A DNA stretch of 64,000 nucleotides from an uncultured Chloroflexia bacterium (GCA_963734535.1 CAVTHS010000002.1:160001-224000), one strand, 5' to 3'; counted from the stretch's first letter, positions 48,137 to 61,829 are shown. The notes: generated by a model from the sequence alone, not told the origin. Numbers and translations are program-made.

Positions 48137-48138
48137 CG

Positions 48139-49519: not shown

Positions 49520-51349
49520 ATGTGCGGCATCGTCGGTTACACGGGCCCGCGGGCGGCCGGCCCGATCCTCCTCGAGGGGCTTCGGCGCCTGGAGTATCGC
49601 GGCTACGATTCGGCCGGGATCGCGCTGGTCACCGAGTCCGGCGAGCTCTTCGTCGAGAAGCGGGCCGGCAAGCTCGCGAACCTGCGCACGGCGCTCCTCG
49701 ACCGGACGCCGAACGCGGGGATCGGCCTCGCGCACACGCGGTGGGCCACGCACGGGCGCCCGAACGACCTCAATGCCCACCCGCACGTGGACTGCACCGG
49801 CGCGATCACCGTCATCCACAACGGGATCATCGAGAACTTCCGCGAGCTTCGAGACGGCCTGGAGGCCCGGGGTCACGTGCTCAGCTCCGAGACCGACACG
49901 GAGGCGCTGGCGCACCTCGTGGAGGAGGCCTACGCCGGCGACCTCGCGGATGCCGTGCGGGCCGCGCTCGCCCGCGTCGAGGGCGCCTACGCCGTGGCCG
50001 TCATGCACCGGGGCGAGCCGGATCGCCTCGTCGGGGCGCGCCAGAACGTGCCGCTGGTGGTGGGCATCGGGGATGGGGAGGCCTTCATCGCGTCCGACGT
50101 GGCGGCGATCCTCGCCCACACGAACCGGGTGGTCTTCCTCGAGGAGGGCGACGTCGTCGACCTGCGACCGACGCGGGCCATCATCACGGGTGTCGACGGG
50201 TCGCCCCGCGAGCGGCTCGTGACCCGGGTGGACTGGACCCCGGAGGCCGCCGAGAAGGGTGGCTTCGATCACTTCATGCTCAAGGAGATCCACGAGCAGC
50301 CGCAGGCGCTCCGCCAGTGCCTGGCCGGCCGGCTGGGCCCGGACCTGACCATCCGCACCGACGAGCTGGCCGGCATGGCGACGGCGCTCGCCGCCGTGGA
50401 CCGCGTGGAGTTCGTCGCCTGCGGCAGCGCGTCCTACGCCGCCCTCGTCGGCGCCGCCGCGGTCCAGGACTGGACTGGCCTCCCGGCCCGCGTGACCGTG
50501 GGCTCCGAGTTTCGCTACAGCCCGCCGCCGCTCGACGGCCGCACGCTCGTCATCGCCGTCACGCAGTCCGGGGAGACGGCCGACACGATCGCGCCCACCC
50601 GGTTCGCCCGCGAGCAGGGCTGCCCGATCATCGCCGTGACGAACACGGTCGGGTCCGCGATCACCCGCGAGGCGGGCGCGGTCCTCTTCCTGCAGGCAGG
50701 CCCGGAGGTCGCGGTCGCCGCGTCGAAGACGTTCACGACCCAGGTCCTGACCCTCGTCCTCGTCGCGGCGCAGATCGCGCGGCTGCGTGGGACGCTGGAC
50801 CGGGAGGTCGAGGCGGCACTCGTCCGCGAGCTGCGCGCGCTCCCGGAAGCGGCCCAGCGGGCCCTCGACGCGGCCGGCGGGATCGCCCCCATCGCCCGGC
50901 GGTACGTCAACTCCCGCGGTTTCATGTTCGTGGGACGCGGCTACACCTACCCGACCGCCATGGAGGGTGCCCTCAAGCTCAAGGAGGTCAGCTACCTGCA
51001 CGCCGAGGGCTATGCCGCCGGCGAGCTGAAGCATGGCCCGATCAGCCTGCTCGACGCGGAGTGCCCGCTGGTGGCGGTCGCGACGCGTTCCACGGTGTAC
51101 GAGAAGCTGGTCAGCAACATCATGGAGGGCCGGGCCCGCGACGCCCGCGTGATCGCGGTCGCGACCGAGGGCGACGACCAGATCGAGCGCTTCGCAGACG
51201 ACATCATGTGGGTTCCGCCGACCCACGAGGCGCTCGGGCCGATCCTCGCCATCATCCCCCTCCAGCTGTTCGCGTACCACGCCGCGGTTGCCCGCGGGAC
51301 CGACGTGGACCAGCCTCGCAACCTCGCGAAGTCGGTCACGGTCGAGTAG
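49520..51349 (+). CDS. glmS: Glutamine--fructose-6-phosphate aminotransferase
   Basis: MCGIVG, HTRWATHG, QSGETADT, PRNLAKSVTVE. Confidence 0.98.
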   Translation: MCGIVGYTGPRAAGPILLEGLRRLEYRGYDSAGIALVTESGELFVEKRAGKLANLRTALLDRTPNAGIGLAHTRWATHGRPNDLNAHPHVDCTGAITVIHNGIIENFRELRDGLEARGHVLSSETDTEALAHLVEEAYAGDLADAVRAALARVEGAYAVAVMHRGEPDRLVGARQNVPLVVGIGDGEAFIASDVAAILAHTNRVVFLEEGDVVDLRPTRAIITGVDGSPRERLVTRVDWTPEAAEKGGFDHFMLKEIHEQPQALRQCLAGRLGPDLTIRTDELAGMATALAAVDRVEFVACGSASYAALVGAAAVQDWTGLPARVTVGSEFRYSPPPLDGRTLVIAVTQSGETADTIAPTRFAREQGCPIIAVTNTVGSAITREAGAVLFLQAGPEVAVAASKTFTTQVLTLVLVAAQIARLRGTLDREVEAALVRELRALPEAAQRALDAAGGIAPIARRYVNSRGFMFVGRGYTYPTAMEGALKLKEVSYLHAEGYAAGELKHGPISLLDAECPLVAVATRSTVYEKLVSNIMEGRARDARVIAVATEGDDQIERFADDIMWVPPTHEALGPILAIIPLQLFAYHAAVARGTDVDQPRNLAKSVTVE

Positions 51350-51352
51350 CGC

Positions 51353-51901
51353 GTGGCCACGCCGGACCCGCGGGTCCCGGACGCGACGCCGGAGCTCGGG
51401 CTCGACATCATCCGCGTCGAGCGAATCCGCGAGGCGCTGACGCGCTTCGGCGACCGATTCGTCCGGCGCGTGCTCACACCGCGGGAGGCGGCGTATGTTC
51501 GTGCGCGTCCCGAGACGTTCGCAGGCCGGTGGGCGGCCAAGGAGGCAGTGAGCAAGGTGCTCGGGCTCGGCGTGCGCGGGATCGGCTGGAGGGACATCGA
51601 GATCGAGCGGATGCCGACCGGCCAGCCCGCAGTCCGGCTCCACGGGCGAGCCGCCGCCCGGGCCGACCAGCTGGGGCTGGCGCGGATCGCCGTCAGCATC
51701 ACCCACGAGCGCGAGTACGCCCTGGCCGTCGCGTTCGGCGTGCGCACCACCGGTGGCCGCTATGTCTTCCCGCTCGACATCGAGGAGCGGCTGGGCGACC
51801 GCGAGGCGGCGCTGCTCCGCCGGATGGAGCGCATCCGCGGGCTCGGCCGCGAAGCGGCGGCACTGACGGCTGCCGCCGAGGAGCCCGGTCATGACGGCTG
51901 A
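51353..51901 (+). CDS. acpS: Holo-ACP synthase with C-terminal extension
   Basis: GLDII, AGRWAAKEAVSK, SITHE. Confidence 0.92.
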   Translation: MATPDPRVPDATPELGLDIIRVERIREALTRFGDRFVRRVLTPREAAYVRARPETFAGRWAAKEAVSKVLGLGVRGIGWRDIEIERMPTGQPAVRLHGRAAARADQLGLARIAVSITHEREYALAVAFGVRTTGGRYVFPLDIEERLGDREAALLRRMERIRGLGREAAALTAAAEEPGHDG

Positions 51902-52895
51902 GCGTCCCGATCCGGCCGGGGTCGAGCGGCCGGCCGAGCGCCTGGACGACCGGAGCGCCGGGCTCCTGCTTCCCGGGCGGCCGGTCCGCGGCCACAAGGG
52001 CACGTTCGGGAAGCTGCTCGTGGTGGCGGGGTCGCTCGACTACGCGGGCGCCGCCCTCCTGGTCTGCCAGGCGGCCGGCCGGGCCGGAGCGGGTCTCGTC
52101 ACCCTCGCGGTCCCGGAGTCGCTCCAGCCGCTCTTCGCGGCGAAGGTCGTGGAGGCCACGACGCTGGCACTTGCCGAGGACGATGTCGAGGAGGTGGACC
52201 CGGAGCCCGCCCTGGCGCGAATCCTCGACCACGAGCACGACGCGCTCGTGGTGGGACCCGGGCTGCGGCCGTCCCTCGCGTCGGCTGCGCTGATCCGCGG
52301 CATCCTCGCGGCCGGCACCGGCGACGACGCCGGCCCCGCGGTCGTCGACGCGGAGGCGCTCCGATCGCTTGCCGCCGAGGACGGCTGGTGGGAGGGCGTG
52401 GTCCGGCCGTGCGTGCTGACCCCCCACGCCGGGGAGTTCCGCCGCCTGCGGGCCGCCGCGGGTGTCGCGGCGGAGGCCGACGGGGACCTCGTGGGGGACG
52501 ACGCGGCCCGGCTCGCGGCCGCCCGCGACGCGGCCGGCGCGTGGGGCCAGGTCGTGGTGCTCAAGGGGGCGCACACCGTGGTCGCGGCTCCCGACGGGTC
52601 CGCGGCCGTGGCGCCATTCGAGAACCCGGCGCTCGCCACGGGAGGGACCGGAGACGTCCTGGCGGGCACCATCGGCGGCCTGCTTGCCCAGGGCCTCCGT
52701 CCGTACGCGGCCGCGCGCCTGGGCGTCCACCTGCACGGGATGGCGGGCGAGGCGGTGCGGCATCGCATGGGCGACGCCGGCCTGCTGGCGGGCGATCTGC
52801 CCGTCGAGATCGCTCGGGCACGCCACCGGCTCGCGGTCGATGCCGCGCGTCGGGCGGGCGGCGCCACGCTCGGGTTCGGGACGCCCGCCGGATGA
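51891..52895 (+). CDS. nnrD: ADP-dependent NAD(P)H-hydrate dehydratase (stand-alone YjeF C domain)
   Basis: HKGTFG..AGS..YAGAA, GPGL, VVDAEAL, LTPHAGEF, LKG, LATGGTGDVLAG. Confidence 0.93.
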   Translation: MTAERPDPAGVERPAERLDDRSAGLLLPGRPVRGHKGTFGKLLVVAGSLDYAGAALLVCQAAGRAGAGLVTLAVPESLQPLFAAKVVEATTLALAEDDVEEVDPEPALARILDHEHDALVVGPGLRPSLASAALIRGILAAGTGDDAGPAVVDAEALRSLAAEDGWWEGVVRPCVLTPHAGEFRRLRAAAGVAAEADGDLVGDDAARLAAARDAAGAWGQVVVLKGAHTVVAAPDGSAAVAPFENPALATGGTGDVLAGTIGGLLAQGLRPYAAARLGVHLHGMAGEAVRHRMGDAGLLAGDLPVEIARARHRLAVDAARRAGGATLGFGTPAG

Positions 52896-54226
52896 TCGGC
52901 GAGGCGTTGCCGATCGAGGCGCGCCTCCGGGCCGCCGGGCTGCCGCCCCTCCCGCGAACGGCGTGGCTGGAGATCGACCTGGACCGGCTCGCGGGGAACG
53001 TCCGGGCGATCGTGGCCGCGCTCCCGGCGGGCACGCTCGTCGAGGCCGTGGTCAAGGCCAACGCATACGGCCACGGTGCCGTCCCGGTCGCCCATGCCGC
53101 GCTGGGGGCCGGGGCGCGCGGCCTCTGCGTGGCGACGCTCGACGAGGCGCTTGCGCTCCGCGGCGCCGGGATCCCGGCCCCGATCCTCGTCCTCTTCCCG
53201 GTCCCGCCGGACGGCGTCGCGGAGGCTGCCCGGGCGGGGATCGCGCTGGCAGCCGGCGACAGCGTGATCTGGGCGCGCGGCCTGGCGGCCTACGCCCGCG
53301 CGCGTCGTCGCGCCCGCGGGCGGCTCGGCGAGCTCGCCGTCCACGTGGGGATCGAGACCGGCCTCGGGCGCGATGGGCTGGCGCCGGACGAGGCGGTGGC
53401 GGCGGTGCGGGCGTTGGCGGCGGTTCCCGGGACGCACTTCGACGGGGCGTGGTCCCATCTCCAGTCGCCCGAGGACGCGGGCAGGACCGCACGCCAGGTC
53501 GCGCGCTTCGAGGTCGCCCTCGACGCCCTGGTCGCGGCCGGGCTGCCTGCCCCGCACCGCCACCTGCTGGCATCGGGTGGCCTGCTCGCCGTGGAGCGGT
53601 ACGTCGGCGGCGAGCGGCCACTCTTCGATGGCCTGCGGGTGGGCCTGGCGCTCTACGGGATCGCGCCGGAGGGGCTCCCGGTCGGCCTGCCGGCGGCCGG
53701 CATCCACGCGGCGCTGCGGCCGGTCCTCTCGCTGCACGCCCGGCCGGTTCGCGTGACGGACCTGCCCACCGGCGAGGGCGTCGGGTATGGCCCGAGCTTC
53801 GTCACGGCCCGCGTCAGCCGGATCGCGACGCTCCCGGTGGGGTATGCGGACGGCTGGGCCCGGGGGCTTGGGAATCGCGCCTTCGCGCTCGTGCGTGGCG
53901 GCCGGGTCCCGCTGGTGGGGACCGTCGCGATGGACGCGGTGATGGCAGATGTCACCGACGTGCCCGGGCCGCCCGTCACGCCGGACGACGAGTTCGTGCT
54001 CCTGGGCGAGCAGGGCGCCGCCCGGATCACCGCCGCGGAGCTGGCGCGGGAACGCACCACGATCAGCTGGGAGGTGGTCGCCGCGATGTCTGCGCGCCTG
54101 CCTCGGGTGTACACTGCGCCGGCCGCGACGGTCGGCATCTGCACGCTCACACAGGACCGGGGGCCATGGCGGAGATCGCGCTCTGGAACGGCGACATCTG
54201 TGACCTCGAGGTGGACGCGATCGTGA
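52892..54226 (+). CDS. alr: Alanine racemase
   Basis: AVVKANAYGHG (PLP lysine), GVGYG, LPVGYADG, VGTVAMD, TISWE. Confidence 0.95.
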   Translation: MIGEALPIEARLRAAGLPPLPRTAWLEIDLDRLAGNVRAIVAALPAGTLVEAVVKANAYGHGAVPVAHAALGAGARGLCVATLDEALALRGAGIPAPILVLFPVPPDGVAEAARAGIALAAGDSVIWARGLAAYARARRRARGRLGELAVHVGIETGLGRDGLAPDEAVAAVRALAAVPGTHFDGAWSHLQSPEDAGRTARQVARFEVALDALVAAGLPAPHRHLLASGGLLAVERYVGGERPLFDGLRVGLALYGIAPEGLPVGLPAAGIHAALRPVLSLHARPVRVTDLPTGEGVGYGPSFVTARVSRIATLPVGYADGWARGLGNRAFALVRGGRVPLVGTVAMDAVMADVTDVPGPPVTPDDEFVLLGEQGAARITAAELARERTTISWEVVAAMSARLPRVYTAPAATVGICTLTQDRGPWRRSRSGTATSVTSRWTRS

Positions 54227-54696
54227 GCCCGGCGAGCACCAGCATGTGGATGGCGACCGGGGTCGCCGGCGCGATCAAGCGCAAGGGCGGCGAGGCGATC
54301 GAGTTCGCGGCCGTTCGCCAGGGTCCAGCCGGCCTTGGCGACGCGATCGTGACCGGCGGCGGGTCGCTTGCCGCGCGCTGGGTGATCCACGCGGTCTCGA
54401 TCGACCATGCGCGCCGCACCGACTCCGCCACCATCGACCGCGCCGTCCGCAACGCGTTCGCGCGCGCTCGCGAGCTGGGCGTGGAGACGCTCGCGATCCC
54501 CGCGCTCGGGACCGGCGTGGGGGGCTTCCCGATCGCCGAGGCCGCCCGCGTGACGGTCGCGGCGGTCCGCTCGGAGCTGGCGCACTCGCCCCGCGTGACC
54601 CGCGTGACCCTGGCCCTCCGCGGTGCGGCCGCCTACGAGGCATTCCGCCTCGCCCTCGCGGCGGCGACCGTTCCGCGGGCCGGGGTGTCCGCGTGA
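54166..54696 (+). CDS. Macro domain (ADP-ribose-binding) protein
   Basis: GDICDLEVDAIVSPAS..GVAGAIKRKGG, G.AIVT.GG.L.ARWVIHAV, AIPALGTGVGGFP. Confidence 0.9.
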   Translation: MAEIALWNGDICDLEVDAIVSPASTSMWMATGVAGAIKRKGGEAIEFAAVRQGPAGLGDAIVTGGGSLAARWVIHAVSIDHARRTDSATIDRAVRNAFARARELGVETLAIPALGTGVGGFPIAEAARVTVAAVRSELAHSPRVTRVTLALRGAAAYEAFRLALAAATVPRAGVSA

Positions 54697-54983
54697 CGCT
54701 CCCCTTTCTGCCGGGAGACGAACAGCGCGCTGCTCTCGTGGAAGAGGTCGCGCGCGAGATCCAGCTGCGGGGGATGACGGGTCCGGCCGTGTTGTTCCTC
54801 CACGCGAGCATGCCGGATGGCGGGCTGGCCGGAAGCGCGATGACATTCTTCGACCCGCTCCTGCGCCAGCTGTTCGGGGGCGGAAACGCGCCCGTCAGCG
54901 CGCTGCTGGCGGACGAGGTCGGGATCGAGCAGCTGATCGACCGGCTCGAGGAGCTCGACGAGGAGTCGGTCTGGGACGCGTGA
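54693..54983 (+). CDS. Uncharacterised 96-aa helical protein
   Basis: GTG start overlapping the macro stop (GTGA); MTLPFLPGDEQRAALVEEVAREIQLRGMTGPAVLFLHASMP...IEQLIDRLEELDEE; GC3-rich codons. Confidence 0.75.
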   Translation: MTLPFLPGDEQRAALVEEVAREIQLRGMTGPAVLFLHASMPDGGLAGSAMTFFDPLLRQLFGGGNAPVSALLADEVGIEQLIDRLEELDEESVWDA

Positions 54984-56728
54984 GCCGCAGAGCGCCGGGG
55001 GCCGTCGAACCGCCGGCCGGCGCCGTCTCCGCCTCCGCGACGGGCCGGCACGCGCGCCCGCCGCGGGCCCGGCCTGCTCGCTCGCCACGCGCGATCGTGG
55101 CCCCCGCCGATGACCGCCAGGCCGCCTTCTACACGCTGGATCACGGATCGGCAACGCTCGCCGGCGCGCTCGTCGGCCGGGTCGACGGATGCTGGCGCCT
55201 GCTTTCGGCAACGGCGCTTCCGACCCGGAGCGGTCCGGATGCGCTCATCGCCCTGCTCGCCCGTCGCCTCGAATCGGTGGACCCGTCACGCGCCGAGGTG
55301 ATCAGGGGCTGGCCGGCCAGCGGGCCGCCGGCCTCTGCGGACGTTCCCCGGCTCGTGGCTCGAAGCCGACCCACCGCGACGCTCGCGGTGATCGCCGCCA
55401 CCGATCGGACGCGGATGAGGCTGGAGGAGGCCGCCGCGGGAGCCGGCTGGAATGTCGTCGCGGGCAGCGCGGAGCGGACCGATCCGCTCGAGCTGACCCG
55501 GCTCGCGACGCGCCCGGGCGTGGTCGCGGTGCTCCTCGGCGTCGCGGATCCGCCCGGTGCCGACGAGCGCGAGCTCGCGACCGAGCTCTCGGTGGCTGCG
55601 GCCGGAATCGCAGCCCGGCGGCCGGGCCTGCGGGTCTTCCTGGCAGGCCCGGTCCCCGACGAGCCCCTGCTGGCGCTCCGGCACGCCCCAGCCATCGAGC
55701 ACTTGCCGGCTCCGCCGAGCGCACCCGGGGAGCTGGCGGGGTCGCCGCTCCGGGATGCCCTGGCCGCGGTCCGCGGGGGTCCCGATGACAGCCGTCGTGC
55801 GCTGGCGGCCGCGGCCGGATCGCTCGCCCGGGTCCTGGGGCTCCGGGTGGAGATCCTCGAGATCGGGGTGTCGGGCGCGGCCCGCGTGCTCGCCTCTCCG
55901 GGACCCGCAGACGACGGGGGAGTGCGGGCCTCGGTCCGGTTGGTCGAGGTTCCCGACGCTGGCCTGTTCCGGATGGACCGGCCCGGCGCGATCGACCGGA
56001 TCGATCACTGGTTCACCCAGGGCGTGGACCGGGCACGGCTCCGAGATCGCCTGGCCGAGCTGGCTGTCGCGCCCTGGGGCGACCTCGATGGAGACGGCGC
56101 GCTCCTGCGGGCAGCCGCGCTCCGCGGAGCGGTGGAGCGCCTGCTCTCGTCGACCGACGCGGAGCTCGGGAGCGCCGGTGTCGACCTCCTTGTCGGCGCG
56201 GGCGGTGCCTGGTCCGCGGTCCCGGGGCCGGCCGCGACCCACATCGTGGCCGACGTGGTCCGTCGTCCCGGCACCGTGCAGGTGGCCATCGATCACGCGC
56301 GCCTCCTCGGGCCGCTCGGCACGATCGAGGACGACGCGGAGCGCGACGCCGTCGTCGCCGATCTCGCGCCGGACCTCCTGCTCCCGGTCGGGACCATCGT
56401 GACGCCGCGTGGCCTGCGGCCGAACCGGCCGGCCGGCCAGCTCTTCCTCGAGACCGCCGCTGGACGATCCGAGATCGACCTGGTCGCCGGGGGCCTGACG
56501 CTGGTGGACCTGCCCCCCGGTGCTCGCGGCACGGCCGAGCTGGCATTCCGCGGAACGCCGGAGCTGGGTCCCCGCGGCCGCCAGTTCCGGGTCGCGGTGA
56601 GCGGCGGCCTTGCCGGGTTGCTGCTCGACCTGCGGGACATCCCGCTCCGGCTCCCCGACCGCCCCGACCGTCGACGCGAGCTGCTGGGGACGTGGGAGCG
56701 GGCGCTCTGGCCCGAGCGCGATTCGTGA
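54980..56728 (+). CDS. GlmL/MutL (glutamate-mutase-L)-like actin-fold protein, divergent
   Basis: Phosphate-1-like TLDHGSAT followed by LVGRVDG.WRLL, second motif LEIGVSG, GAGG adenosine-like motif, C-terminal GGLAGLLLDLRDIPLRLP..RRELL.TW recalled from GlmL-like proteins. Confidence 0.6.
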   Translation: MSRRAPGAVEPPAGAVSASATGRHARPPRARPARSPRAIVAPADDRQAAFYTLDHGSATLAGALVGRVDGCWRLLSATALPTRSGPDALIALLARRLESVDPSRAEVIRGWPASGPPASADVPRLVARSRPTATLAVIAATDRTRMRLEEAAAGAGWNVVAGSAERTDPLELTRLATRPGVVAVLLGVADPPGADERELATELSVAAAGIAARRPGLRVFLAGPVPDEPLLALRHAPAIEHLPAPPSAPGELAGSPLRDALAAVRGGPDDSRRALAAAAGSLARVLGLRVEILEIGVSGAARVLASPGPADDGGVRASVRLVEVPDAGLFRMDRPGAIDRIDHWFTQGVDRARLRDRLAELAVAPWGDLDGDGALLRAAALRGAVERLLSSTDAELGSAGVDLLVGAGGAWSAVPGPAATHIVADVVRRPGTVQVAIDHARLLGPLGTIEDDAERDAVVADLAPDLLLPVGTIVTPRGLRPNRPAGQLFLETAAGRSEIDLVAGGLTLVDLPPGARGTAELAFRGTPELGPRGRQFRVAVSGGLAGLLLDLRDIPLRLPDRPDRRRELLGTWERALWPERDS

Positions 56729-57741
56729 CCGACACGCTCGACCTGGTCCCGGCCCGGCCGTTCATCGTGGAGCGGCCGCGGATTCGGCTGGAGCTGCAGC
56801 CCGGCGACCGGGTGATCGCCGCCGTCGGCGACGAGGTTCACGTCGGCGACGTCCTGGCCGAGCGGATCCGTGACGCTCGGCTGGTCGAGGCCGTCACGCC
56901 GCGGGACGGCGCCGACCAGGGCATCCCGTTGCCAGGTACGTGGCTGCCCGGTGAGCACGCGCGGCCCGGCCGCCATCCCGGCGCACCCGCCGGCGAGCTG
57001 CTCTTCGAGCACGGCGGCCGGCGGCGCCTGGCGACCGGCCCGCACCCCGACCGCCTCCTCGCGCCCGGCGACGGCCGGATCCTCGAGGTGGAGCCGGGCG
57101 TCGCGCTGGTGCTGGAGGTCCAGGGCCCGGGGCTCGCCGCGACCGAGCTGCTCGGGGAGCCCCACTCGGGCCGGCTGGTGGTCCTTCCCGACGACTCCGA
57201 TTCGCGCCTGGCGCTCGACGTGGCCCTCGCCGGGTCGGTGGTGGTCCTGCCCGGACGGGTGGATGCCGAGGCGCTTGCGCGGGCACGGGCGATGGGGATC
57301 CATGGCGCCATCGTGGGCTCGCTCGCCGAGCGCGATCGGCGTGACCTCGTCGCGTCGGCGGCCCGTCAGCAGGCCGGCCTCCACCGCCTGGCGCCGTTCG
57401 GTGTGCTCGTGGTGGGCGGCTACCTCCGCCGCGCATTCCCCCGTGCCGTCCAGTCCGTCCTCGAGGCGGCCGCCGGTTCGCTCGTCGGCCTCGTCGGCGA
57501 TCCGCCGCTGCTGCTCCTCCCGGAGGATCTCGCGCTGCCCGTGCCGGCGCCAGATCGGGTCGTCGTTCGGGGTGGCTCCGAGGCAGGCCTCGAGGGCCGC
57601 TGGCTGGGGCCGGGCGGACTCCGCCGCGTCCGGAGCGGGATCACGGCGGAGACGGGCCTCGTCAGGCTCGATGACGGCCGGACGGTCGCGATCCCGATCG
57701 GAGAGCTGGAGCGGTTCGCCGTCCACGCCGCCAACGGGTAG
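56725..57741 (+). CDS. Uncharacterised protein with barrel-sandwich-hybrid N-terminus and KOW-like C-terminus
   Basis: VGDEVHVGDVLA..APGDGRILEV (biotinyl/lipoyl-like repeat without the modified Lys), central VVVLPGRVDAEAL..A.GIHGAIVGS, C-terminal DRVVVRGG..G.EG..VRLDDGRTVAIPIGELE. Confidence 0.65.
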   Translation: MTDTLDLVPARPFIVERPRIRLELQPGDRVIAAVGDEVHVGDVLAERIRDARLVEAVTPRDGADQGIPLPGTWLPGEHARPGRHPGAPAGELLFEHGGRRRLATGPHPDRLLAPGDGRILEVEPGVALVLEVQGPGLAATELLGEPHSGRLVVLPDDSDSRLALDVALAGSVVVLPGRVDAEALARARAMGIHGAIVGSLAERDRRDLVASAARQQAGLHRLAPFGVLVVGGYLRRAFPRAVQSVLEAAAGSLVGLVGDPPLLLLPEDLALPVPAPDRVVVRGGSEAGLEGRWLGPGGLRRVRSGITAETGLVRLDDGRTVAIPIGELERFAVHAANG

Positions 57742-57822
57742 GCTCTGCAGCGTGTCATCCTCCTCTGCATCTCGCGGCCTGGCTCACCGGCTCGCTGCCC
57801 GCCCGGTGGGCGTGGCCTTCGG

Positions 57823-58293
57823 ATGACCGGTGCGCTGCCCCCGATTCGGCTGCTCGCGCCCGACCCCGCCGCGACGCGCGCCCTCGGCGAACGCCTGGGG
57901 AGGGCCGCCGTGGCGGGTGACGTGATCGCGCTCAGCGGGCCGCTGGGGGCAGGCAAGACCGAGCTCGCGCGCGGGATCGCACGCGGCCTTGGCGTGGTGG
58001 GCCCGGTCAGCTCGCCGACCTTCGTCCTCGTCGCGGAGCACGAGGGTCGCCTGCCGCTCTTCCACCTCGACGGCTATCGCCTTGCCAGTCCCGAGGACGC
58101 GCTCGGGGCGGGGCTGCTCGACGAGCGGCGTGCCGCGGGCGTCACGGTCGTCGAATGGGCCGAGCGCCTCTCCGCCGCGCTGCCGGTCGGCCGTCTCGAG
58201 ATCCGCCTCGACGGGTCCGGCGACGACCCGAGAACGCTTGTCTGCCGTGCGACCGACGTCCGCCACGCGCTGCTCCTCGAGGCCCTGGTATGA
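57823..58293 (+). CDS. tsaE: t6A biosynthesis ATPase TsaE
   Basis: LSGPLGAGKT, VSSPTF, H.D.YRL, VEW. Confidence 0.95.
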   Translation: MTGALPPIRLLAPDPAATRALGERLGRAAVAGDVIALSGPLGAGKTELARGIARGLGVVGPVSSPTFVLVAEHEGRLPLFHLDGYRLASPEDALGAGLLDERRAAGVTVVEWAERLSAALPVGRLEIRLDGSGDDPRTLVCRATDVRHALLLEALV

Positions 58294-59030
58294 CCGCGAC
58301 GAGCGAAGGCGGGCTGCTGCTGGCGATCGACACGTCGACCTCCCGGGCCGTGCTCGCCCTCGGACGGTCGAACGGAACGCTGCTCGCGGCCGACATGTGG
58401 GATGCGGGCCATCGACATGTCGAGGAGCTGCTGCCGCGCCTCGAAGGGTTCCTCGAGGGTCGCGGCCTCGACCGAGCGGCGCTCGCGAGCCTTTCCGGCA
58501 TCGTTGTCGGGACGGGCCCCGGCGCCTTCACGGGGCTTCGCGTGGGGATCGCGACGGCGAAGGCCCTCGCACTCGCGTTCGACCGGCCGCTGCTCGCGAT
58601 CGGGAGCGGCGCCGCGCTGCTCGCTGCCGCCGCCGACGCCGATCCGGCGACCGACCCGGCGCGCCTCCTGGTCCTGATGCCGGCCGGCCCCACGGGCCGC
58701 TACGTCGTCACGGTGGCCGGCACGCGGGTCGTCATCGGGGATGAGATGCCCGATCTCGCCCCCGGCTCGGTGCCGGTCGCGGTTGACCTCGCCGCGCGCG
58801 CGCCCGACGCCGCCGTCGCGCGCGGCGAGGCCGCCATCGACCGCTTCCCGGGAATGCTTCTTCGGCTGGGCGCTGCGCGGCTCGCGGCTGGTGGCGCCGA
58901 TGAGCCCGCGGAGGTCGTTCCCGAGTACGTCTCGCTCCCGCGCGGCGCTGCGCGCGATGCAGGTGCAGCCCGTTCGGCCGACGCCGCGGGAGCCGGGATC
59001 GTGACGACGTGGTCGCCCGCCCGCCCGTGA
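58290..59030 (+). CDS. tsaB: t6A biosynthesis protein TsaB
   Basis: LAIDTST, H.E.LLP, GPGAFTGLRVG. Confidence 0.93.
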   Translation: MTATSEGGLLLAIDTSTSRAVLALGRSNGTLLAADMWDAGHRHVEELLPRLEGFLEGRGLDRAALASLSGIVVGTGPGAFTGLRVGIATAKALALAFDRPLLAIGSGAALLAAAADADPATDPARLLVLMPAGPTGRYVVTVAGTRVVIGDEMPDLAPGSVPVAVDLAARAPDAAVARGEAAIDRFPGMLLRLGAARLAAGGADEPAEVVPEYVSLPRGAARDAGAARSADAAGAGIVTTWSPARP

Positions 59031-59572
59031 GGCTCGTCATCGAGCCGATGGCCCACGTGGACCTGCCTGCGGTACAGGCGATCGAACGCGCCAGCTTCAC
59101 CACGCCCTGGCCGGAGCATGCCTACCAGGCAGAGCTCGAGACGAACAAGCTGGCACGCTACCTCGTCGTCCGGGCCGGGCACGAGGTCGTCGCCTATGCC
59201 GGGATCTGGCTCATGGTGGACGAGGCCCACATCACGACCTTCGCCGTTGCGCCGGCGTGGCGCCGGCGGAGGATCGGGGAGCGTCTGCTCACCGCGGCGC
59301 TGGACCTCTCGATTGCCCGTGGCGCCCGCGAAGCGACGCTGGAGGTCCGCCTCTCGAACCTGCCGGCCCGCCGGCTCTACGAGAAGTACGGCTTCCGGCC
59401 GGTCGGGATCCGGCCCCGCTACTACAGCGACGATCACGAGGACGCGCTGATCATGACCACGGAGCCGCTCCTCTCACCCGGGATGCAGGCGCGCCTCGCG
59501 GCGCTCGGCGCCCAGCTCGCCGCGCTGCCCGACCCGGAGCCGCCGGACGCGCCGCCGGCGATCGGCTCGTGA
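59009..59572 (+). CDS. rimI: Ribosomal-protein-alanine N-acetyltransferase
   Basis: IERASFTTPW, EAHITTFAV, LEVRLSN, RPRYY..EDALIM. Confidence 0.93.
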   Translation: MVARPPVRLVIEPMAHVDLPAVQAIERASFTTPWPEHAYQAELETNKLARYLVVRAGHEVVAYAGIWLMVDEAHITTFAVAPAWRRRRIGERLLTAALDLSIARGAREATLEVRLSNLPARRLYEKYGFRPVGIRPRYYSDDHEDALIMTTEPLLSPGMQARLAALGAQLAALPDPEPPDAPPAIGS

Positions 59573-60771
59573 GCCCCCGCGAACCCGTGCTCCTGGCGAT
59601 CGAATCGTCCTGCGATGAGACCGGGGTCGCGCTCGTCGCGGGAGGGCGCCGGATCCTGGCCCAGGCGGTGGCGAGCCAGATCGCGCTCCACGCGCCGGCT
59701 GGCGGGATCGTGCCCGAGCTCGCCGCCCGCGCACACCTGCGCTGGATCGTGCCCGCGCTTCGTGACGTCCTCGAGAGCGCAGGCGTGACCATCCCCGAGG
59801 TCGACGGGATCGCGGTCACCGCCGGCCCAGGCCTCGCAGGCTCGCTCCTGGTCGGCATCGCCTTCGCGAAGACGCTGGCATGGGCGCACCAGCGTCCGCT
59901 CGTCGGCGTCAACCACCTCGAGGGGCACCTCTACGCGGCATGGCTCCTGGAGCGCGACGAGCCGGAGCGCCCGGCGCCCCCCTTCCCGCTCGTGGCGCTC
60001 GTCGTCTCCGGTGGTCATACGTTCCTCGTCGAGATGCGAGACCACCTTGCCTACCGGCTCCTCGGTGAGACCGTCGACGATGCGGCGGGCGAGGCGTTCG
60101 ACAAGGCCGGGCGCCTGCTCGGCCTCGGCTATCCTGGCGGCCCGGCCATTGCCGCCGCCGCGACCGGCGCACGCCGCCGCGACGCGGTCCTCCCGCGGGC
60201 GTGGCTCGGCCGCTCGTACGACTTCAGCTTCTCCGGGCTCAAGACCGCCCTGCGGCGCCAGGTCGAGGCGGAGCTCGCCGCGGGGGCACGGCCCGGCACC
60301 GAGGCAGGCGGCCGCCTCGATGCACTCCGTGTCGCCGAGCTGGCGTGGGGCTTCCAGGAGGCGGTCGTCGACGTCCTGGCGACCAAGACCCTGCGCGCGG
60401 CCGACGAGACGGCCGCACGAGCCGTCGTGCTCGGCGGCGGGGTGGCCTCGAACGTGGCGCTCCGTGAGCGGATCGCCGCCGGCGCCTCCGCGCGCGGCCT
60501 GCCCGTCTTCATCCCGCCGCCGGACCTCTGCACGGACAACGGGGCGATGATCGCGGCGGCCGGCTGGCAGCGGTTCGTGGCCGGGGAACGCGCGGGCAGC
60601 GATCTCGGGGCGCGGCCCGCGTGGCCCCTCGTCCGTCCGTTCGGGACGCCCGACACGCGTCGCCCGCCCCGCCGCGGCCCTGCCGCACGCGCCTACGAGG
60701 CCGCACTCGCCGCCGAGCGAGACGCCGCGGGCGAAGTCCCCATGTCCGTGCCCGGCGAGCGCGCGAGGTGA
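59569..60771 (+). CDS. tsaD: t6A transferase TsaD
   Basis: LAIESSCDETG, HLEGH, VSGGHT, DDAAGEAFDK, FSFSGLKT, CTDNGAMIA. Confidence 0.96.
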   Translation: MSPREPVLLAIESSCDETGVALVAGGRRILAQAVASQIALHAPAGGIVPELAARAHLRWIVPALRDVLESAGVTIPEVDGIAVTAGPGLAGSLLVGIAFAKTLAWAHQRPLVGVNHLEGHLYAAWLLERDEPERPAPPFPLVALVVSGGHTFLVEMRDHLAYRLLGETVDDAAGEAFDKAGRLLGLGYPGGPAIAAAATGARRRDAVLPRAWLGRSYDFSFSGLKTALRRQVEAELAAGARPGTEAGGRLDALRVAELAWGFQEAVVDVLATKTLRAADETAARAVVLGGGVASNVALRERIAAGASARGLPVFIPPPDLCTDNGAMIAAAGWQRFVAGERAGSDLGARPAWPLVRPFGTPDTRRPPRRGPAARAYEAALAAERDAAGEVPMSVPGERAR

Positions 60772-61829
60772 CCGGCGTGCGGCTCGATCCGGCCGCTGTC
60801 CGGCGGACGCTGCGGGCTGCCGGCCTGCGTCCGCAGCGCCGGTTCAGCCAGAACTTCCTGGTGGACGTCGACGTGCTCGAGGCGATCCTCGACGCGTCCG
60901 GGGCGTCACCCGGCCGGACCGTCCTCGAGATCGGGCCGGGGCTCGGGATCCTGACCGGCGGGCTGCTGGAGGTGGGCGCCGCCGTGACGGCGGTCGAGCT
61001 CGACCGGGGGATGGTGGAGCACCTCGCCGTGGCCTTCGAGCCGGCAATCGCGGGCGCCGCCGACGGGCCCCGCCCGCCCGCGCCCAACCCCCCGGGGACG
61101 CTTCGCCTTGTCGCGGCCGACATCCTCGACGCAGACCTGCCCCGACTGCTGGCCGCCCCGTACGACGTGGTCGCGAACCTGCCATACCACGTGACGAGCC
61201 CGATCCTGCACCGGATGCTCGGCTCGGAGCCGCGCCCCGAGCACTGCATCCTGATGGTCCAGCGGGAGGTGGCCGAACGCGTCGCGGCCCGGCCCGGGTC
61301 GATGAGCTACCTGTCGGTCTTCGTCCAGTATCACGCCGCCGCCTCGTTGGTCCGGACCGTTCCGCGCGACGCGTTCGAGCCGGCCCCGGCCGTCGACTCG
61401 GCGATCCTCGCCCTCGACGTGCGGCCCGCCGACGCCCCGGGCCGCCTCCCGGTCGAGATGGAGGATCACCTCTGGCGGCTCGTCCAGGCGGGCTTCCGTG
61501 AGCGTCGCAAGATGCTCAGGAACGTGCTCGGCCGGCAGCTGCCCGTGGACCAGGCGACGGTGGACGCCGCGCTCGCGGCCGCCGGGATCGCCGGCGACCG
61601 CCGCCCGCAGACGCTCTCGGTGGCGGAATGGATCGGCCTGCTCGGCGCCCTCGGCCCGCTGCCGCCGGACGATCGGGGCCGCCGCGGCGCACGCGCCGGG
61701 ATCCCCGAAGACGACGAACCCGCCCCCGCGACGGCGGACGGGTGGGAAGCTGCGGGCGAAGCCGGTGCCCGGGGCGCGCAGCGTCGCGTCGGCGGTCCCG
61801 AGCGCCGGCGCGATCCAGGCCGTGGGTGA
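60768..61829 (+). CDS. rsmA: 16S rRNA m6,2A dimethyltransferase RsmA/KsgA
   Basis: FSQNFL, LEIGPGLG.LT, VANLPYH, MVQREVAER, RRKMLRN. Confidence 0.94.
   Translation: MTGVRLDPAAVRRTLRAAGLRPQRRFSQNFLVDVDVLEAILDASGASPGRTVLEIGPGLGILTGGLLEVGAAVTAVELDRGMVEHLAVAFEPAIAGAADGPRPPAPNPPGTLRLVAADILDADLPRLLAAPYDVVANLPYHVTSPILHRMLGSEPRPEHCILMVQREVAERVAARPGSMSYLSVFVQYHAAASLVRTVPRDAFEPAPAVDSAILALDVRPADAPGRLPVEMEDHLWRLVQAGFRERRKMLRNVLGRQLPVDQATVDAALAAAGIAGDRRPQTLSVAEWIGLLGALGPLPPDDRGRRGARAGIPEDDEPAPATADGWEAAGEAGARGAQRRVGGPERRRDPGRG

What the first reader, a model, noticed from the sequence alone, without database searches (positions are those of the whole stretch)
54166..57741. Translationally coupled 4-gene module with a GlmL/MutL-like actin-fold protein but no B12 mutase: candidate undescribed system
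Seen: four consecutive ORFs (macrodomain, 96-aa helical protein, 582-aa protein, 338-aa protein) are joined by GTGA stop/start overlaps at 54693, 54980 and 56725. They sit inside an otherwise housekeeping run between alr and tsaE. Knowledge: GlmL/MutL is an actin-like (ASKHA) ATPase-fold accessory protein encoded between glutamate mutase subunit genes in clostridia, and no mutase gene occurs in this window. The 338-aa protein has biotinyl/lipoyl-like barrel-sandwich repeats lacking the modified lysine, a small alpha/beta core and a KOW-like tail. Inference: from memory, this GlmL-like, barrel-sandwich and small helical trio recurs without mutases in Chloroflexota and other lineages, often with membrane proteins. 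Here it would be a minimal soluble version attached to an ADP-ribose reader, with unknown function (nucleotide-driven chaperone, reactivase or scaffold).
Basis: partly seen in the sequence, partly recalled or inferred. Interest (0 to 1): 0.82.

Follow-up and report, generated by a model that had tools for sequence, protein, structure and literature searches.

The report
Membrane-less GlmL-like actin-fold protein module
Three of these four genes are the soluble remnant of a widespread but unstudied gene system built around an actin-fold protein and its fixed partner, kept by a whole class of soil and freshwater bacteria, and nobody yet knows what it does.

Summary
Four real ORFs lie at 54166-57741 with GTGA overlaps at 54693, 54980 and 56725, although g3 may instead start at 55094. 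The window is from a Candidatus Limnocylindria (Chloroflexota) MAG.

- **g3 (582 aa):** it has no Pfam hit of its own. Its model has an ASKHA (actin/Hsp70) fold with a flavodoxin-like insert. Its positional orthologues match Pfam MutL/GlmL at 76-182 bits.
- **g4 (338 aa):** barrel-sandwich, swivelling beta/beta/alpha and KOW-like domains.
- **g3-g4 binding:** a complex model supports it (ipSAE 0.84, best control 0.00).
- **Wider system:** elsewhere in Chloroflexota the order is g2, four membrane genes (one DUF6754), g3, then g4 where detected. This family deleted the membrane block but keeps g2-g3-g4 under purifying selection (dN/dS 0.04-0.25).
- **Reduction series:** a sister genus keeps only g3-g4. 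A streamlined family keeps one fused g3-g4 gene in 26 of 26 genomes.
- **Macro gene:** it is optional.
- **B12 mutases:** the genome has no glutamate mutase. MCM-type mutases are present, and one lies beside the pair in one sister family, so a B12 link is unlikely but not excluded.

Function is unknown. This scan noted the same module before on other Limnocylindria DNA.

The parts
54166..54696 (+). macro: small macro-domain protein (176 aa). It is an optional neighbour, not part of the conserved core.
   Evidence: It matches Pfam Macro at 6e-25 (87.9 bits, cut-off 22). The best NCBIfam profiles (O-acetyl-ADP-ribose deacetylase and ADP-ribose-binding protein) score 107 bits, below their cut-offs of 200-252. 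The nearest solved chain is Thermus TTHA0132 (2dx6) at 2e-27. By tblastn it is present in 26 of 30 same-family loci, 6 of 10 f4 loci and 0 of 8 outgroup loci. dN/dS is 0.11-0.20.
54693..54983 (+). g2: 96-aa protein of no known family. It is the first gene of the conserved system.
   Evidence: It has no Pfam or NCBIfam family. It was found in 30 of 30 same-family loci at 58-95% identity, which is higher than for g3 or g4. A profile of it finds a small ORF just upstream of the first membrane gene, m1, in 5 of 8 outgroup loci. dN/dS is 0.04-0.11, the lowest of the four genes.
54980..56728 (+). g3: divergent GlmL/MutL-family ASKHA (actin-fold) protein. Its parts are a disordered N-terminal tail (1-45), lobe I (about 46-130), a flavodoxin-like insert (about 131-270), lobe II (about 271-460), a C-terminal beta domain (about 468-550) and a conserved tail. 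An alternative start lies at 55094.
   Evidence: The AlphaFold2 model has pLDDT 83.1 and pTM 0.84. Foldseek gives 246 PDB matches at E<=1e-3, all ASKHA proteins among those listed. VIA-align gives FtsA Z 12.1, a dehydratase activator Z 10.8, DdrA Z 10.7 and acetone carboxylase beta Z 10.6. The insert matches flavodoxin-like domains at Z about 11. P0003 has no Pfam hit of its own, but its orthologues match PF13941 at 76.5, 157 and 182 bits.
56725..57741 (+). g4: partner protein. Its parts are a barrel-sandwich hybrid (about 18-133), a swivelling beta/beta/alpha domain (about 134-270) and a KOW/SH3-like tail (about 278-334).
   Evidence: The AlphaFold2 model has pLDDT 84.4 and pTM 0.79. VIA-align against 48,161 chains gives:
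- Barrel-sandwich part: BCCP Z 8.2, NqrA Z 8.6, RnfC Z 8.0.
- Swivel part: RraA Z 9.6, Enzyme I phosphohistidine domain Z 9.3.
- T. maritima NusG Z 8.8, with the alignment reaching residue 331.

It has no Pfam family. The complex model with g3 gives ipSAE 0.84 against a best control of 0.00.
52892..54226 (+). alr (alanine racemase), the upstream flank.
   Evidence: Translation and tblastn synteny support this. It overlaps macro by 61 nt.
57823..58293 (+). tsaE, the downstream flank. It is the gene that follows g3-g4 in every family examined that carries the pair.
   Evidence: Evidence by Limnocylindria family:
- f1: 8 of 8 wide loci and 28 of 30 short loci.
- f4: 10 of 10 loci.
- f2: 1 of 1 locus.
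- f3: 2 of 2 loci.

Best explanation
Genes g2, g3 and g4 are the cytoplasmic core of an undescribed gene system built around a GlmL/MutL-family actin-fold (ASKHA) protein.

**Origin.** In other Chloroflexota the system has a fixed order: g2, four membrane-protein genes (m1-m4; m1 is DUF6754), g3, then g4 where it was detected. In the family of this genome the four membrane genes were lost as one block. g2-g3-g4 remained between alr and tsaE.

**Complex.** g3 and g4 form a tight heterodimer. In the model, g4's barrel-sandwich domain sits on the flavodoxin-like insert of g3. Its swivelling domain sits on lobe II, and its N-terminal strand and KOW-like tail sit on lobe I. g4 therefore bridges the two lobes whose relative movement normally follows nucleotide binding.

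**Inferred mechanism.** The pair works as a conformational switch or clamp. In the full system it would couple the cytoplasmic ASKHA cycle to the membrane complex. Here it would act on a soluble or otherwise unknown client.

**Shown versus inferred.**
- Shown: the folds, the homology chain to PF13941, the gene order, the loss of the membrane genes, purifying selection, and the natural g3-g4 fusion.
- Supported only by a model: the interface.
- Inferred: the switch mechanism.
- Unknown: the client and the role of g2.

The module is not a glutamate mutase accessory, and the macro gene is an optional neighbour.
For: **Fold**
- g3 is an ASKHA protein with a flavodoxin-like insert.
- g4 has barrel-sandwich, swivel and KOW-like parts.

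**Homology chain to GlmL/MutL**
- A profile of g3 finds 972 representatives at E<=1e-3.
- Three of the 10 distant full-length ones scanned pass the PF13941 cut-off, and 2 more score just below it.
- One of them is named 'glutamate mutase L' by NCBI.
- The same-site orthologue in family f4 scores 76.5 bits, and outgroup orthologues score 157 and 182 bits.

**Gene order**
- m1-m2-m3-m4-g3 occur in order in 8 of 8 distant Chloroflexota loci. A g2-like ORF was found in 5 of 8 and g4 by profile in 3 of 8.
- The order alr-(macro)-g2-m1-m4-g3-g4-tsaE occurs in 8 of 10 f4 loci.

**Loss of the membrane genes in f1**
- g2, g3 and g4 are adjacent in 30 of 30 f1 loci from 13 genera.
- DUF6754 was found in 0 of 15 f1 genomes but 13 of 15 f4 genomes.
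- In the window's own genome (89.9% complete) tblastn gives no m1-m4 hit better than E 0.18. Profiles give no hit at E<=10, and the best m1 hit with filters off is E 0.1.

**The genes are still functional**
- The g3 profile finds the gene in 44 of 44 f1 genomes.
- dN/dS is 0.04-0.25.

**g3-g4 binding**
- ipSAE was 0.83, 0.84 and 0.84 in three runs, and the best of 3 controls was 0.00.
- That mark was reached by 58 of 80 solved complexes and 2 of 110 mismatched pairs.
- The runs agree in at least 94% of contacts, and the partner's pLDDT is at least 84.
- The tool notes that these calibration counts hold only roughly when the user's own alignments are supplied.

**Independent support for association**
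- In streamlined family f2, one 556-aa gene between alr and tsaE joins g3 residues about 262-549 to g4 residues about 135-332 (hhalign 93.3% and 98.4%).
- It is conserved in 26 of 26 f2 genomes.
- It lacks the g3 insert and the g4 barrel-sandwich domain. In the model these are the two parts that touch each other.

**Not a glutamate mutase accessory**
- PF06368 (glutamate mutase E) was not found in the genome.
Against: - No function is shown, and the mechanism is inferred from anatomy.
- The nucleotide site of the f1 proteins is remodelled. The phosphate-2 Asp is Glu in 11 of 12 f1 sequences and Met in 1. The Lys after phosphate-1 seen in f4 is absent. The insert loop reads DPPxxDER in most f1 sequences, where f4 and the outgroup have a Gly-rich GG(x)(D/E)GG-type loop.
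- The f2 fusion lacks most of lobe I. ATP turnover may therefore not be needed for whatever is conserved across the class.
- One sister family has an MCM-type B12 mutase next to the pair.
- DUF6754-positive Chloroflexota nearly always carry MCM: 75 of 78, against 157 of 223 DUF6754-negative genomes. These genomes are not phylogenetically independent.
- The reach of the system beyond Chloroflexota was not tested here. It rests on unchecked earlier notes of this scan and on look-alike clusters in the protein atlas.
- g4 was detected in only 3 of 8 outgroup loci.
- The binding of g2 was not tested.
Confidence: 0.55

Rival explanations
1. The pair is a GlmL-type reactivating chaperone for a coenzyme-B12 enzyme encoded elsewhere, here an MCM-family acyl-CoA mutase. 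Its flavodoxin-like insert would stand in for a B12-binding subunit during cofactor exchange, much as DdrB does in diol dehydratase reactivase (this mechanism is recalled, not taken from a call).
For: - The only role in print for the family is reactivation. The Fig. [quoted passage not shown]
- The genome has 2 MCM-family genes and 4 B12-binding domains.
- In family f3 an MCM gene lies 2.2-2.7 kb upstream, on the same strand, of the g3-like/g4-like pair in at least 17 of 38 genomes. One of the 17, G102, is unpublished.
- In G055 a Glyoxalase_4 epimerase-like gene and a Peptidase_C26 gene lie between the MCM gene and the pair.
- 75 of 78 DUF6754-positive Chloroflexota have MCM.
- The g3 insert aligns with a B12-binding domain (8j2y, Z 9.9), among other flavodoxin-like folds.
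Against: - MCM is present in 151 of 151 Limnocylindria genomes sampled and in 232 of 301 Chloroflexota genomes, so co-occurrence is nearly uninformative.
- Two near-complete DUF6754-positive genomes (G341 and G386, 99% and 98% complete) have no MCM at E<=1e-20.
- The genome has MeaB, the usual MCM chaperone, next to a B12-binding domain.
- No MCM gene lies in the outgroup loci (0 of 8), the f4 loci (0 of 10) or the f1 loci (0 of 8 wide, 0 of 30 short).
- Four membrane proteins in the full system are not explained by a mutase chaperone.
- The insert matches flavodiiron flavodoxin domains and CheY-like domains at least as well (Z 10.7-11.0).
Confidence: 0.14
2. The pair is functionally tied to the operon that follows it, tsaE-tsaB-rimI-tsaD (t6A tRNA modification and ribosomal-protein acetylation). 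It could, for example, be an extra actin-fold partner of the ASKHA proteins TsaB and TsaD.
For: - g3-g4, or their fusion, lies directly upstream of tsaE in all four Limnocylindria families examined that carry it.
  - f1: 8 of 8 wide loci and 28 of 30 short loci.
  - f4: 10 of 10 loci.
  - f2: 1 of 1 locus, with a stop/start overlap onto tsaE.
  - f3: 2 of 2 loci.
- In f3 the upstream block is different (MCM instead of alr), yet the adjacency to tsaE is kept.
- The fusion is retained in genomes of 1.0-1.4 Mb (26 of 26).
Against: - In 0 of 8 outgroup loci is the system near tsaE, alr or any other gene of this operon.
- Gene order in this region is conserved for all neighbours, so linkage may be inherited rather than functional.
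- No tool result links g3 or g4 to TsaB, TsaD or TsaE.
Confidence: 0.1
3. It is a four-gene ADP-ribose-linked module. The macro domain would read or remove ADP-ribose on g2, g3 or g4, or on their client.
For: - Macro and g2 overlap by 4 nt in this window.
- A macro gene precedes g2 in 26 of 30 f1 loci and 6 of 10 f4 loci.
- One contig of a soil metatranscriptome library covers 54156-54999 at about 94.5% identity. It spans macro and g2.
Against: - Macro was not found by tblastn in 4 of 30 f1 loci.
- It is absent from G001 (L017) and reduced to a 36-residue remnant in G015 (L018) in the same genus.
- It is absent from the f2 and f3 loci and from 0 of 8 outgroup loci.
- In other f1 genera the macro/g2 overlap is replaced by a gap.
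- A contig from an RNA library may derive from DNA and does not show a single transcript.
Confidence: 0.05
4. It is a decaying, functionless leftover of the seven-gene system.
For: - The membrane partners are gone.
- On the g3 tree the f1 stem is long, at 1.65 changes per site against 0.47 for f4. The stem of the second membrane-less lineage is 0.84 (quick tree).
- Motifs of the nucleotide site are altered.
Against: - ORFs are intact in 44 of 44 f1 genomes.
- dN/dS is 0.04-0.25, like the housekeeping neighbours.
- A fused version is kept in 26 of 26 streamlined genomes.
- A g4-like gene is present in 38 of 41 f3 genomes.
Confidence: 0.03

Closest known systems
GlmL/MutL, the accessory protein of coenzyme-B12 glutamate (methylaspartate) mutase (Pfam PF13941)
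   Same: Both have the ASKHA fold. Positional orthologues of g3 match PF13941 over the whole model (positions 2-449 of 450, 182 bits). NCBI names one relative 'glutamate mutase L'.
   Different: - P0003 itself does not reach the Pfam or NCBIfam models.
- No glutamate mutase E gene was found in the genome.
- g3 has a C-terminal beta domain and tail beyond the Pfam model. In the L172 orthologue, PF13941 ends at residue 474 while the g3 profile runs to residue 584.
- g3 has an obligate partner, g4, and ancestrally four membrane partners. None of these is described for GlmL.
- The phosphate-2 Asp is Glu in 11 of 12 f1 sequences.
The uncharacterised seven-gene system g2 / DUF6754 + three membrane proteins / GlmL-like ATPase / barrel-sandwich partner. 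It appears in earlier notes of this scan. Nothing was found in print: 0 papers for 'DUF6754' and 0 for 'PF13941'.
   Same: g2, g3 and g4 are homologous to its first gene and last two genes and keep the same order.
   Different: The four membrane genes are missing. The remnant sits inside a housekeeping operon, which the outgroup copies do not. The ASKHA protein evolved fast on the stem of this family.
Diol/glycerol dehydratase reactivases DdrAB/GdrAB (PDB 2d0o)
   Same: The set of domains is similar: an ASKHA ATPase (2d0o_C, Z 10.7, rmsd 4.9, 232 residues aligned), a swivelling beta/beta/alpha domain and a Rossmann/flavodoxin-like module. The domain make-up of DdrAB is recalled and comes from no call.
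   Different: The domains are spread over the chains differently. Here the flavodoxin-like module is inserted in the ASKHA chain and the swivel domain lies in the partner. DdrA is no closer in Z than FtsA or the dehydratase activators. No Pfam reactivase family matched at E<=1.
Hydantoinase A / acetone and acetophenone carboxylase ASKHA subunits
   Same: These give the best Foldseek match (5l9w_b, E 1.9e-9) and the longest VIA alignments (5svc_B, 299 residues, Z 10.6; 5m45_B, 310 residues, Z 10.2).
   Different: TM-scores are low (0.24-0.27). No Hydantoinase_A Pfam hit was found. No partner catalytic subunit is encoded nearby.
N-terminal barrel-sandwich domains of RnfC/NqrA, and biotinyl/lipoyl carriers
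   Same: g4 residues about 18-133 superpose on NqrA (Z 8.6), RnfC (Z 8.0, 38% identity over 64 aligned residues) and BCCP (Z 8.2, rmsd 1.9). Look-alike atlas clusters carry RnfC_N or Biotin_lipoyl on 11-25% of their members.
   Different: No Pfam RnfC_N or Biotin_lipoyl match was found. No NADH- or FMN-binding part follows. Whether a modifiable lysine is present was not examined.

Membership tests
GlmL/MutL (Pfam PF13941) | The sequence matches the family model above its gathering score (27 bits). | tested here: not met
   P0003 has no Pfam family at E<=1, and a whole-genome search with PF13941 gives 0 matches. Orthologues at the same site or in the same system do match: 76.5 bits, 157.3 and 182.3 bits, and 86.5, 43.5 and 39.7 bits. 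Membership is therefore by transitive homology only.
GlmL/MutL (Pfam PF13941) | ASKHA (actin/Hsp70/sugar-kinase) two-lobe fold. | tested here: met
   The model has pLDDT 83.1. Foldseek gives 246 matches at E<=1e-3, and those listed are ASKHA proteins. VIA-align Z is 10-12 over residues 46-458.
GlmL/MutL (Pfam PF13941) | The gene is encoded with the glutamate mutase subunit genes glmS and glmE. | tested here: not met
   PF06368 (Met_asp_mut_E) has no match in the genome, which is 89.9% complete. The neighbours are alr and tsaE.
GlmL/MutL (Pfam PF13941) | Intact ASKHA nucleotide-site motifs (phosphate-1, phosphate-2, adenosine). The motif definitions are recalled. | tested here: inconclusive
   Phosphate-1 DxG(S/T/A) is kept in 11 of 12 f1 sequences. 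The phosphate-2 Asp is Glu in 11 of 12 and Met in 1. A GG-containing adenosine loop is kept in 11 of 12. No nucleotide-binding assay is possible with these tools.
Seven-gene GlmL-like ATPase / membrane system (uncharacterised) | Homologues of g2, g3 and g4 occur in that order. | tested here: met
   Profiles built from f1 and f4 sequences find g3 in 8 of 8 outgroup loci, a g2-like ORF in 5 of 8 and g4 in 3 of 8, in the same order.
Seven-gene GlmL-like ATPase / membrane system (uncharacterised) | Four membrane-protein genes (m1 = DUF6754, then m2, m3 and m4) lie between g2 and g3. | tested here: not met
   g2 and g3 overlap in the window. PF20539 gives no hit in the genome. tblastn gives no m1-m4 hit better than E 0.18, and profile searches give none. 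DUF6754 was found in 0 of 15 genomes of the same family.
Macro domain (Pfam PF01661) | The sequence matches the family model above its cut-off. | tested here: met
   The match is 87.9 bits against a cut-off of 22. The nearest solved chain is 2dx6 at 2e-27. Hydrolase activity versus binding only was not tested.
Diol/glycerol dehydratase reactivase (DdrA/GdrA) | Specific similarity to the reactivase large subunit, beyond the shared ASKHA fold. | tested here: inconclusive
   2d0o_C scores Z 10.7, within 1.5 of unrelated ASKHA proteins such as FtsA (12.1) and 4ehu (10.8). No reactivase Pfam family matched at E<=1.
Biotinyl/lipoyl barrel-sandwich hybrid domain | The fold, plus the modified lysine at the hairpin tip. 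| tested here: inconclusive
   The fold matches at Z 8.0-8.6 with rmsd 1.8-2.4 over 58-64 residues. There is no Pfam Biotin_lipoyl hit. The lysine position was not examined.

The most novel reading that the evidence does not exclude
The g3-g4 pair is a class-wide, near-indispensable two-protein device with a function of its own, separate from the membrane machine it came from. That function would not need ATP hydrolysis.

Limnocylindria show a natural reduction series:
- seven genes;
- three genes (this window);
- two genes (genus g21);
- one fused gene that lacks the nucleotide-binding lobe, the flavodoxin-like insert and the barrel-sandwich domain (family f2).

Every version lies directly upstream of tsaE. 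The kept core (ASKHA lobe II, the beta domain, the swivel domain and the KOW-like tail) would be a new kind of scaffold or regulator, possibly serving the TsaEBD/RimI operon.
Probability: 0.15. Interest if true: 0.75.

Novelty: new variant of a known kind. Interest (0 to 1): 0.58.

Why it matters
GlmL/MutL-family proteins are widely annotated as 'glutamate mutase L'. Most of the ones seen here have no glutamate mutase nearby, so that annotation is misleading for them.

The system around them was found in 78 of 301 sampled Chloroflexota genomes, judged by its DUF6754 marker. None of the searches run here found a description of it in print.

The Limnocylindria copies amount to a natural deletion series. 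They show which parts always stay together: g3 lobe II and its beta domain, with the g4 swivel and KOW-like domains. They also show which parts are lost together: the g3 insert with the g4 barrel-sandwich domain.

These copies also provide a soluble, membrane-free version that could be expressed and studied directly. That makes the function of the whole family testable.

Tried and rejected
- **PDB sequence search with the g3 profile.** It gave only 7 chains at E 1.2-1.5 (a PAF acetylhydrolase and the PfoI endonuclease). I treated these as noise.
- **The search for related loci.** It could not use the 18-row alignment A3 because no stretch was conserved enough. With A4 it found 428 relatives.
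- **Whole-genome profile searches for g3.** They reported 0 of 16 and 0 of 6 for family f2 and 1 of 49 for f3. I first read this as absence. A synteny-guided look upstream of tsaE showed it was a sensitivity failure. I therefore withdrew the co-occurrence argument I had based on those tallies and on MCM within the class.
- **Candidate g4 genes in the outgroup.** hhalign of the g4 profile against the ORFs downstream of g3 in L177 and L171 gave probabilities of 0.2% and 0.05%, so these are not g4.
- **Long database 'proteins'.** Entries of 650-970 aa that join g3 and g4 pieces (for example P0366 and P0375) come from the same high-GC clade with 4-nt overlaps. They may be frameshifted gene calls, so I did not use them as evidence of fusion.
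- **Protein atlas search for g2.** It returned only its own Chloroflexota clusters, none with a family.
- **Promoter and terminator scan of 49000-61500.** It found 0 of each. The scan is uninformative at 71% GC.
- **Reads.** Only contigs could be laid. The RNA-library run left most of g3 and g4 uncovered, which shows nothing. A joint skipping 55554-56988 has a side of only 21 letters, and I disregarded it.
- **Codon-position GC.** It did not settle the start of g3.
- **Careful maximum-likelihood tree.** It did not finish in the time allowed, so only the quick tree is reported.

Full report
**1. The observation**

The window is G000:C2:160001-224000 of a 3.2-Mb MAG that is 89.9% complete with 7.1% contamination. 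Its relatives are named Candidatus Limnocylindria or Limnocylindrales, in Chloroflexota.

- macro, 54166-54696
- g2, 54693-54983
- g3, 54980-56728
- g4, 56725-57741

GTGA overlaps are present at 54693, 54980 and 56725.

The start of g3 is not certain. Residues 1-45 are disordered in the model and aligned only in the closest relatives. An in-frame GTG lies at 55094, and codon-position GC does not decide.

Overlaps are the norm in this operon: 7 of the 10 junctions from glmS to rimI overlap. The overlaps therefore show an operon, not a special unit.

The genes are real. They are syntenic in 11 of 11 same-genus loci. dN/dS against four relatives is 0.11-0.20 for macro, 0.04-0.11 for g2, 0.22-0.25 for g3 and 0.14-0.25 for g4. 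The comparable values are 0.09-0.23 for alr and 0.22 for tsaB.

**2. What the proteins are**

*Macro.* It matches Pfam Macro at 87.9 bits. Its nearest solved relative is Thermus TTHA0132 (2dx6, 2e-27).

*Family searches.* g2, g3 and g4 match no Pfam or NCBIfam family.

*g3.* The AlphaFold2 model (pLDDT 83.1, pTM 0.84) has an ASKHA fold.
- Foldseek finds 246 PDB chains at E<=1e-3. The list is led by the acetophenone carboxylase core, N-methylhydantoinase, glycerol kinases, PilM and acetone carboxylase.
- VIA-align gives FtsA Z 12.1, 2-hydroxyacyl-CoA dehydratase activators Z 10.1-10.8, DdrA Z 10.7 and acetone carboxylase beta Z 10.6.
- Residues about 131-270 form an inserted flavodoxin-like domain. 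It matches flavodiiron flavodoxin domains at Z about 11, Spo0F at 10.8 and a B12-binding domain at 9.9.
- A beta domain (468-550) and a conserved tail follow.

*g4.* The model (pLDDT 84.4) has three parts.
- Residues about 18-133 form a barrel-sandwich hybrid: NqrA Z 8.6, BCCP Z 8.2, RnfC Z 8.0.
- Residues about 134-270 form a swivelling beta/beta/alpha domain: RraA Z 9.6, Enzyme I phosphohistidine domain Z 9.3, rifampin phosphotransferase Z 8.7.
- The tail is KOW-like: the alignment to T. maritima NusG (Z 8.8) reaches residue 331.

**3. The link to GlmL/MutL**

A word-based search found 137 relatives of g3. None of the 120 listed carries a Pfam domain.

A full profile search found 972 representatives at E<=1e-3. 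Of 10 distant full-length ones scanned, 3 pass the PF13941 cut-off (86.5, 43.5 and 39.7 bits) and 2 lie just below it. NCBI names one of them 'glutamate mutase L'.

The orthologue at the same chromosomal site in sister family f4 scores 76.5 bits. Outgroup orthologues score 157 and 182 bits over the whole model.

g3 is therefore a fast-evolved member of the GlmL/MutL lineage that has drifted below the family threshold. [quoted passage not shown] 4 legend, passage read). Searches for DUF6754 and PF13941 found no paper, and searches for GlmL-like terms found nothing relevant.

**4. The larger system and its reduction**

*Family f4.* The site between alr and tsaE reads macro (6 of 10 loci), g2, m1, m2, m3, m4, g3, g4 in 8 of 10 loci.
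- m1 matches DUF6754.
- m2 and m4 look polytopic from their hydrophobic sequences as read.
- m1 and m3 have hydrophobic stretches at both ends.

*Outgroup.* DUF6754 occurs in 78 of 301 sampled Chloroflexota genomes, in many families.
- In 8 of 8 distant loci fetched around it, the order m1-m2-m3-m4-g3 holds. A g2-like ORF lies upstream in 5 of 8, and g4 is detected downstream in 3 of 8.
- There m3 is 560-1520 aa long, and in the three scanned it carries weak N-terminal zinc-ribbon matches, below the Pfam cut-offs.
- None of these loci is near alr, tsaE or a macro gene.

*Family f1 (this genome).*
- g2, g3 and g4 are adjacent in 30 of 30 loci from 13 genera.
- DUF6754 is found in 0 of 15 genomes.
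- The own genome has no m1-m4 by tblastn (best E 0.18) or by profiles.

*Genus g21 of f4.* It has lost g2, m1-m4 and macro, and keeps only g3-g4.

*The g3 tree.* On a quick maximum-likelihood tree f1, f4 and the outgroup are each one clade (SH-aLRT 100, 95 and 100). The two membrane-less lineages have long stems: f1 at 1.65 and g21 at 0.84 changes per site, against 0.05-0.47 for other internal branches within f4 and its stem. The careful tree did not finish.

**5. A correction made during the work**

Whole-genome profile searches reported the module missing from families f2 (0 of 16, 0 of 6) and f3 (1 of 49). Looking upstream of tsaE showed otherwise.

*Family f2 (genomes of 1.0-1.4 Mb).* A single 556-aa gene lies between alr and tsaE, overlapping both by 4 nt.
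- Its residues 62-326 align with g3 residues 262-549 (93.3%, E 2.7e-7).
- Its residues 365-555 align with g4 residues 135-332 (98.4%, E 5.8e-15).
- It is found in 26 of 26 f2 genomes, with identity down to 41%.

*Family f3.* A g4-like gene is found in 38 of 41 genomes, and in 16 of 16 of high quality. In the locus I examined in detail (G055), a g3-like gene lies in front of it and tsaE behind it.

The pair is therefore very probably class-wide and always lies directly upstream of tsaE.

**6. g3 and g4 bind**

A complex model of g3 (residues 46-582) with g4 gave ipSAE 0.83, 0.84 and 0.84. The best of three controls gave 0.00. That mark was reached by 58 of 80 solved complexes and 2 of 110 mismatched pairs. 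The runs agree in at least 94% of contacts, and the partner's pLDDT is at least 84. The tool warns that these calibration counts hold only roughly when the user's own alignments are used.

In the model:
- g4's N-terminal strand and KOW-like tail touch g3 residues 78-92 (lobe I).
- Its barrel-sandwich domain touches the insert (168-215).
- Its swivel domain touches helices 352-374 and residues 412-415 (lobe II).

The f2 fusion is independent, Rosetta-stone-type support. It has also lost the g3 insert and the g4 barrel-sandwich domain, the two parts that touch each other in the model.

**7. The nucleotide site**

The motif definitions are recalled.

| Motif | Outgroup | f4 | f1 |
|---|---|---|---|
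| Phosphate-1 | (D/E)IG(S/T) | DxGSAWxK | DxG(S/T/A)AT in 11 of 12; no Lys |
| Phosphate-2 | D-x-G...(T/S) | VDxGA | Asp replaced by Glu in 11 of 12, Met in 1 |
| Loop in the insert | Gly-rich, e.g. GGIEGG | GGF(D/E) in most | DPPxxDER in most |
| Adenosine loop | GG kept in 5 of 8 | GxGR | GG kept in 11 of 12 |

Together with the f2 fusion, which lacks most of lobe I, this suggests that ATP hydrolysis may be altered or dispensable in the reduced versions. This is an inference.

**8. B12 mutases**

*Against a link*
- The genome has no glutamate mutase E.
- It has two MCM-family genes and four B12-binding domains on other contigs. MeaB lies next to one of the B12-binding domains.
- MCM is in 151 of 151 sampled Limnocylindria genomes, so co-occurrence within the class says nothing.
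- Two near-complete DUF6754-positive genomes lack MCM.
- No MCM gene lies in the outgroup loci (0 of 8), the f4 loci (0 of 10) or the f1 loci (0 of 8, 0 of 30).

*For a link*
- Across the phylum, 75 of 78 DUF6754-positive genomes have MCM, against 157 of 223 DUF6754-negative ones. These genomes are related, so this is not a valid statistical test.
- In family f3 an MCM gene lies 2.2-2.7 kb upstream of the pair, on the same strand, in at least 17 of 38 genomes (one of them, G102, is unpublished).
- In G055 an epimerase-like gene and a Peptidase_C26 gene lie between the two.

I rate the B12-reactivase reading at about 0.14.

**9. Expression**

Only contigs could be laid. One 844-nt contig of a soil metatranscriptome library covers 54156-54999 (macro, g2 and the first 20 nt of g3) at about 94.5% identity. 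Shorter contigs lie in g3 and g4. This is weak evidence, because DNA can be present in such libraries.

**10. Verdict**

Corrections:
- Macro is optional.
- The conserved core is g3-g4, with g2 kept only here and where the membrane genes are present.
- Independence from B12 enzymes is not proven.

The most likely reading (0.55) is a heterodimeric ASKHA-plus-adaptor switch that has been freed from its membrane machine, with an unknown client.

This scan noted the same module before on three other Limnocylindria genomes, and the wider system on several phyla. Those notes are unchecked, and where they overlap my own tests the two agree.

Counts include unpublished genomes: G122, G131, G157, G102, G140, G146, G126, G387, G218, G314, G339 and G426. 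Supplementary files of the cited papers were not seen.

Noticed in passing
L184:6527-8197 (G025, family f2): In the 1.0-1.4-Mb streamlined family a single 556-aa gene fuses a truncated g3 (lobe II and the beta domain) to a truncated g4 (swivel and KOW-like). Its start overlaps the alr stop and its stop overlaps the tsaE start, each by 4 nt. It is conserved in 26 of 26 genomes of that family.
   Followed up: yes
L186:1411-6593 (G055, family f3), and 16 further f3 genomes: In family f3 the block upstream of the g3-like/g4-like pair is an MCM-family mutase, a Glyoxalase_4 (epimerase-like) gene and a Peptidase_C26 gene, instead of glmS-acpS-nnrD-alr. The MCM gene lies 2.2-2.7 kb from the g4-like gene in at least 17 of 38 genomes.
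   Followed up: partly
Family f1, genus g5 (G053, G056, G065, G071, G121, G156, G179); proteins P0248 and P0253: In 7 of the 9 sampled genomes of this genus the g3 match is split in two. About 100-160 extra residues lie between profile positions about 206 and 208, inside the flavodoxin-like insert. The nature of the extra segment is unknown.
   Followed up: no
L172:11070-15410 and L172:18534-19577; also L173, L174, L176-L178: In outgroup Chloroflexota the m3 membrane protein is 560-1520 aa long, and in the three scanned it has weak N-terminal zinc-ribbon matches, below the Pfam cut-offs. In L172 a DUF11/CARDB surface-type protein follows the system.
   Followed up: no
Window 54166-54226: alr runs 61 nt into the macro gene in another frame. 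The alr C-terminal tail past the conserved '...RVYT' end may not be translated as called, or the two genes truly overlap.
   Followed up: no
Window 45703-51894 and many others: At 71% GC the window is full of long spurious ORFs on both strands, for example a 2063-aa ORF over glmS and its neighbours. ORF length alone is no evidence of a gene here.
   Followed up: no
Loci L069, L096, L098, L102, L107, L113, L129, L132: Contigs carrying a Limnocylindria-type g3 (52-62% identity to the f4 query) sit in MAGs titled Dormiibacterota, Steroidobacteraceae, Methylomirabilota or Gaiellales. This probably reflects binning or labelling errors rather than gene transfer.
   Followed up: no
Window 54983-55086, compared with run X2: A permafrost-metagenome contig from a relative replaces these 102 nt (g3 residues about 2-36) with 78 different letters. 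Both lengths are multiples of three, which fits a hypervariable but translated N-terminal tail.
   Followed up: no
L017 (G001) and L018 (G015), same genus as the window: The macro gene is absent from G001. In G015 it is reduced to a 36-residue remnant, while g2-g3-g4 stay intact.
   Followed up: partly
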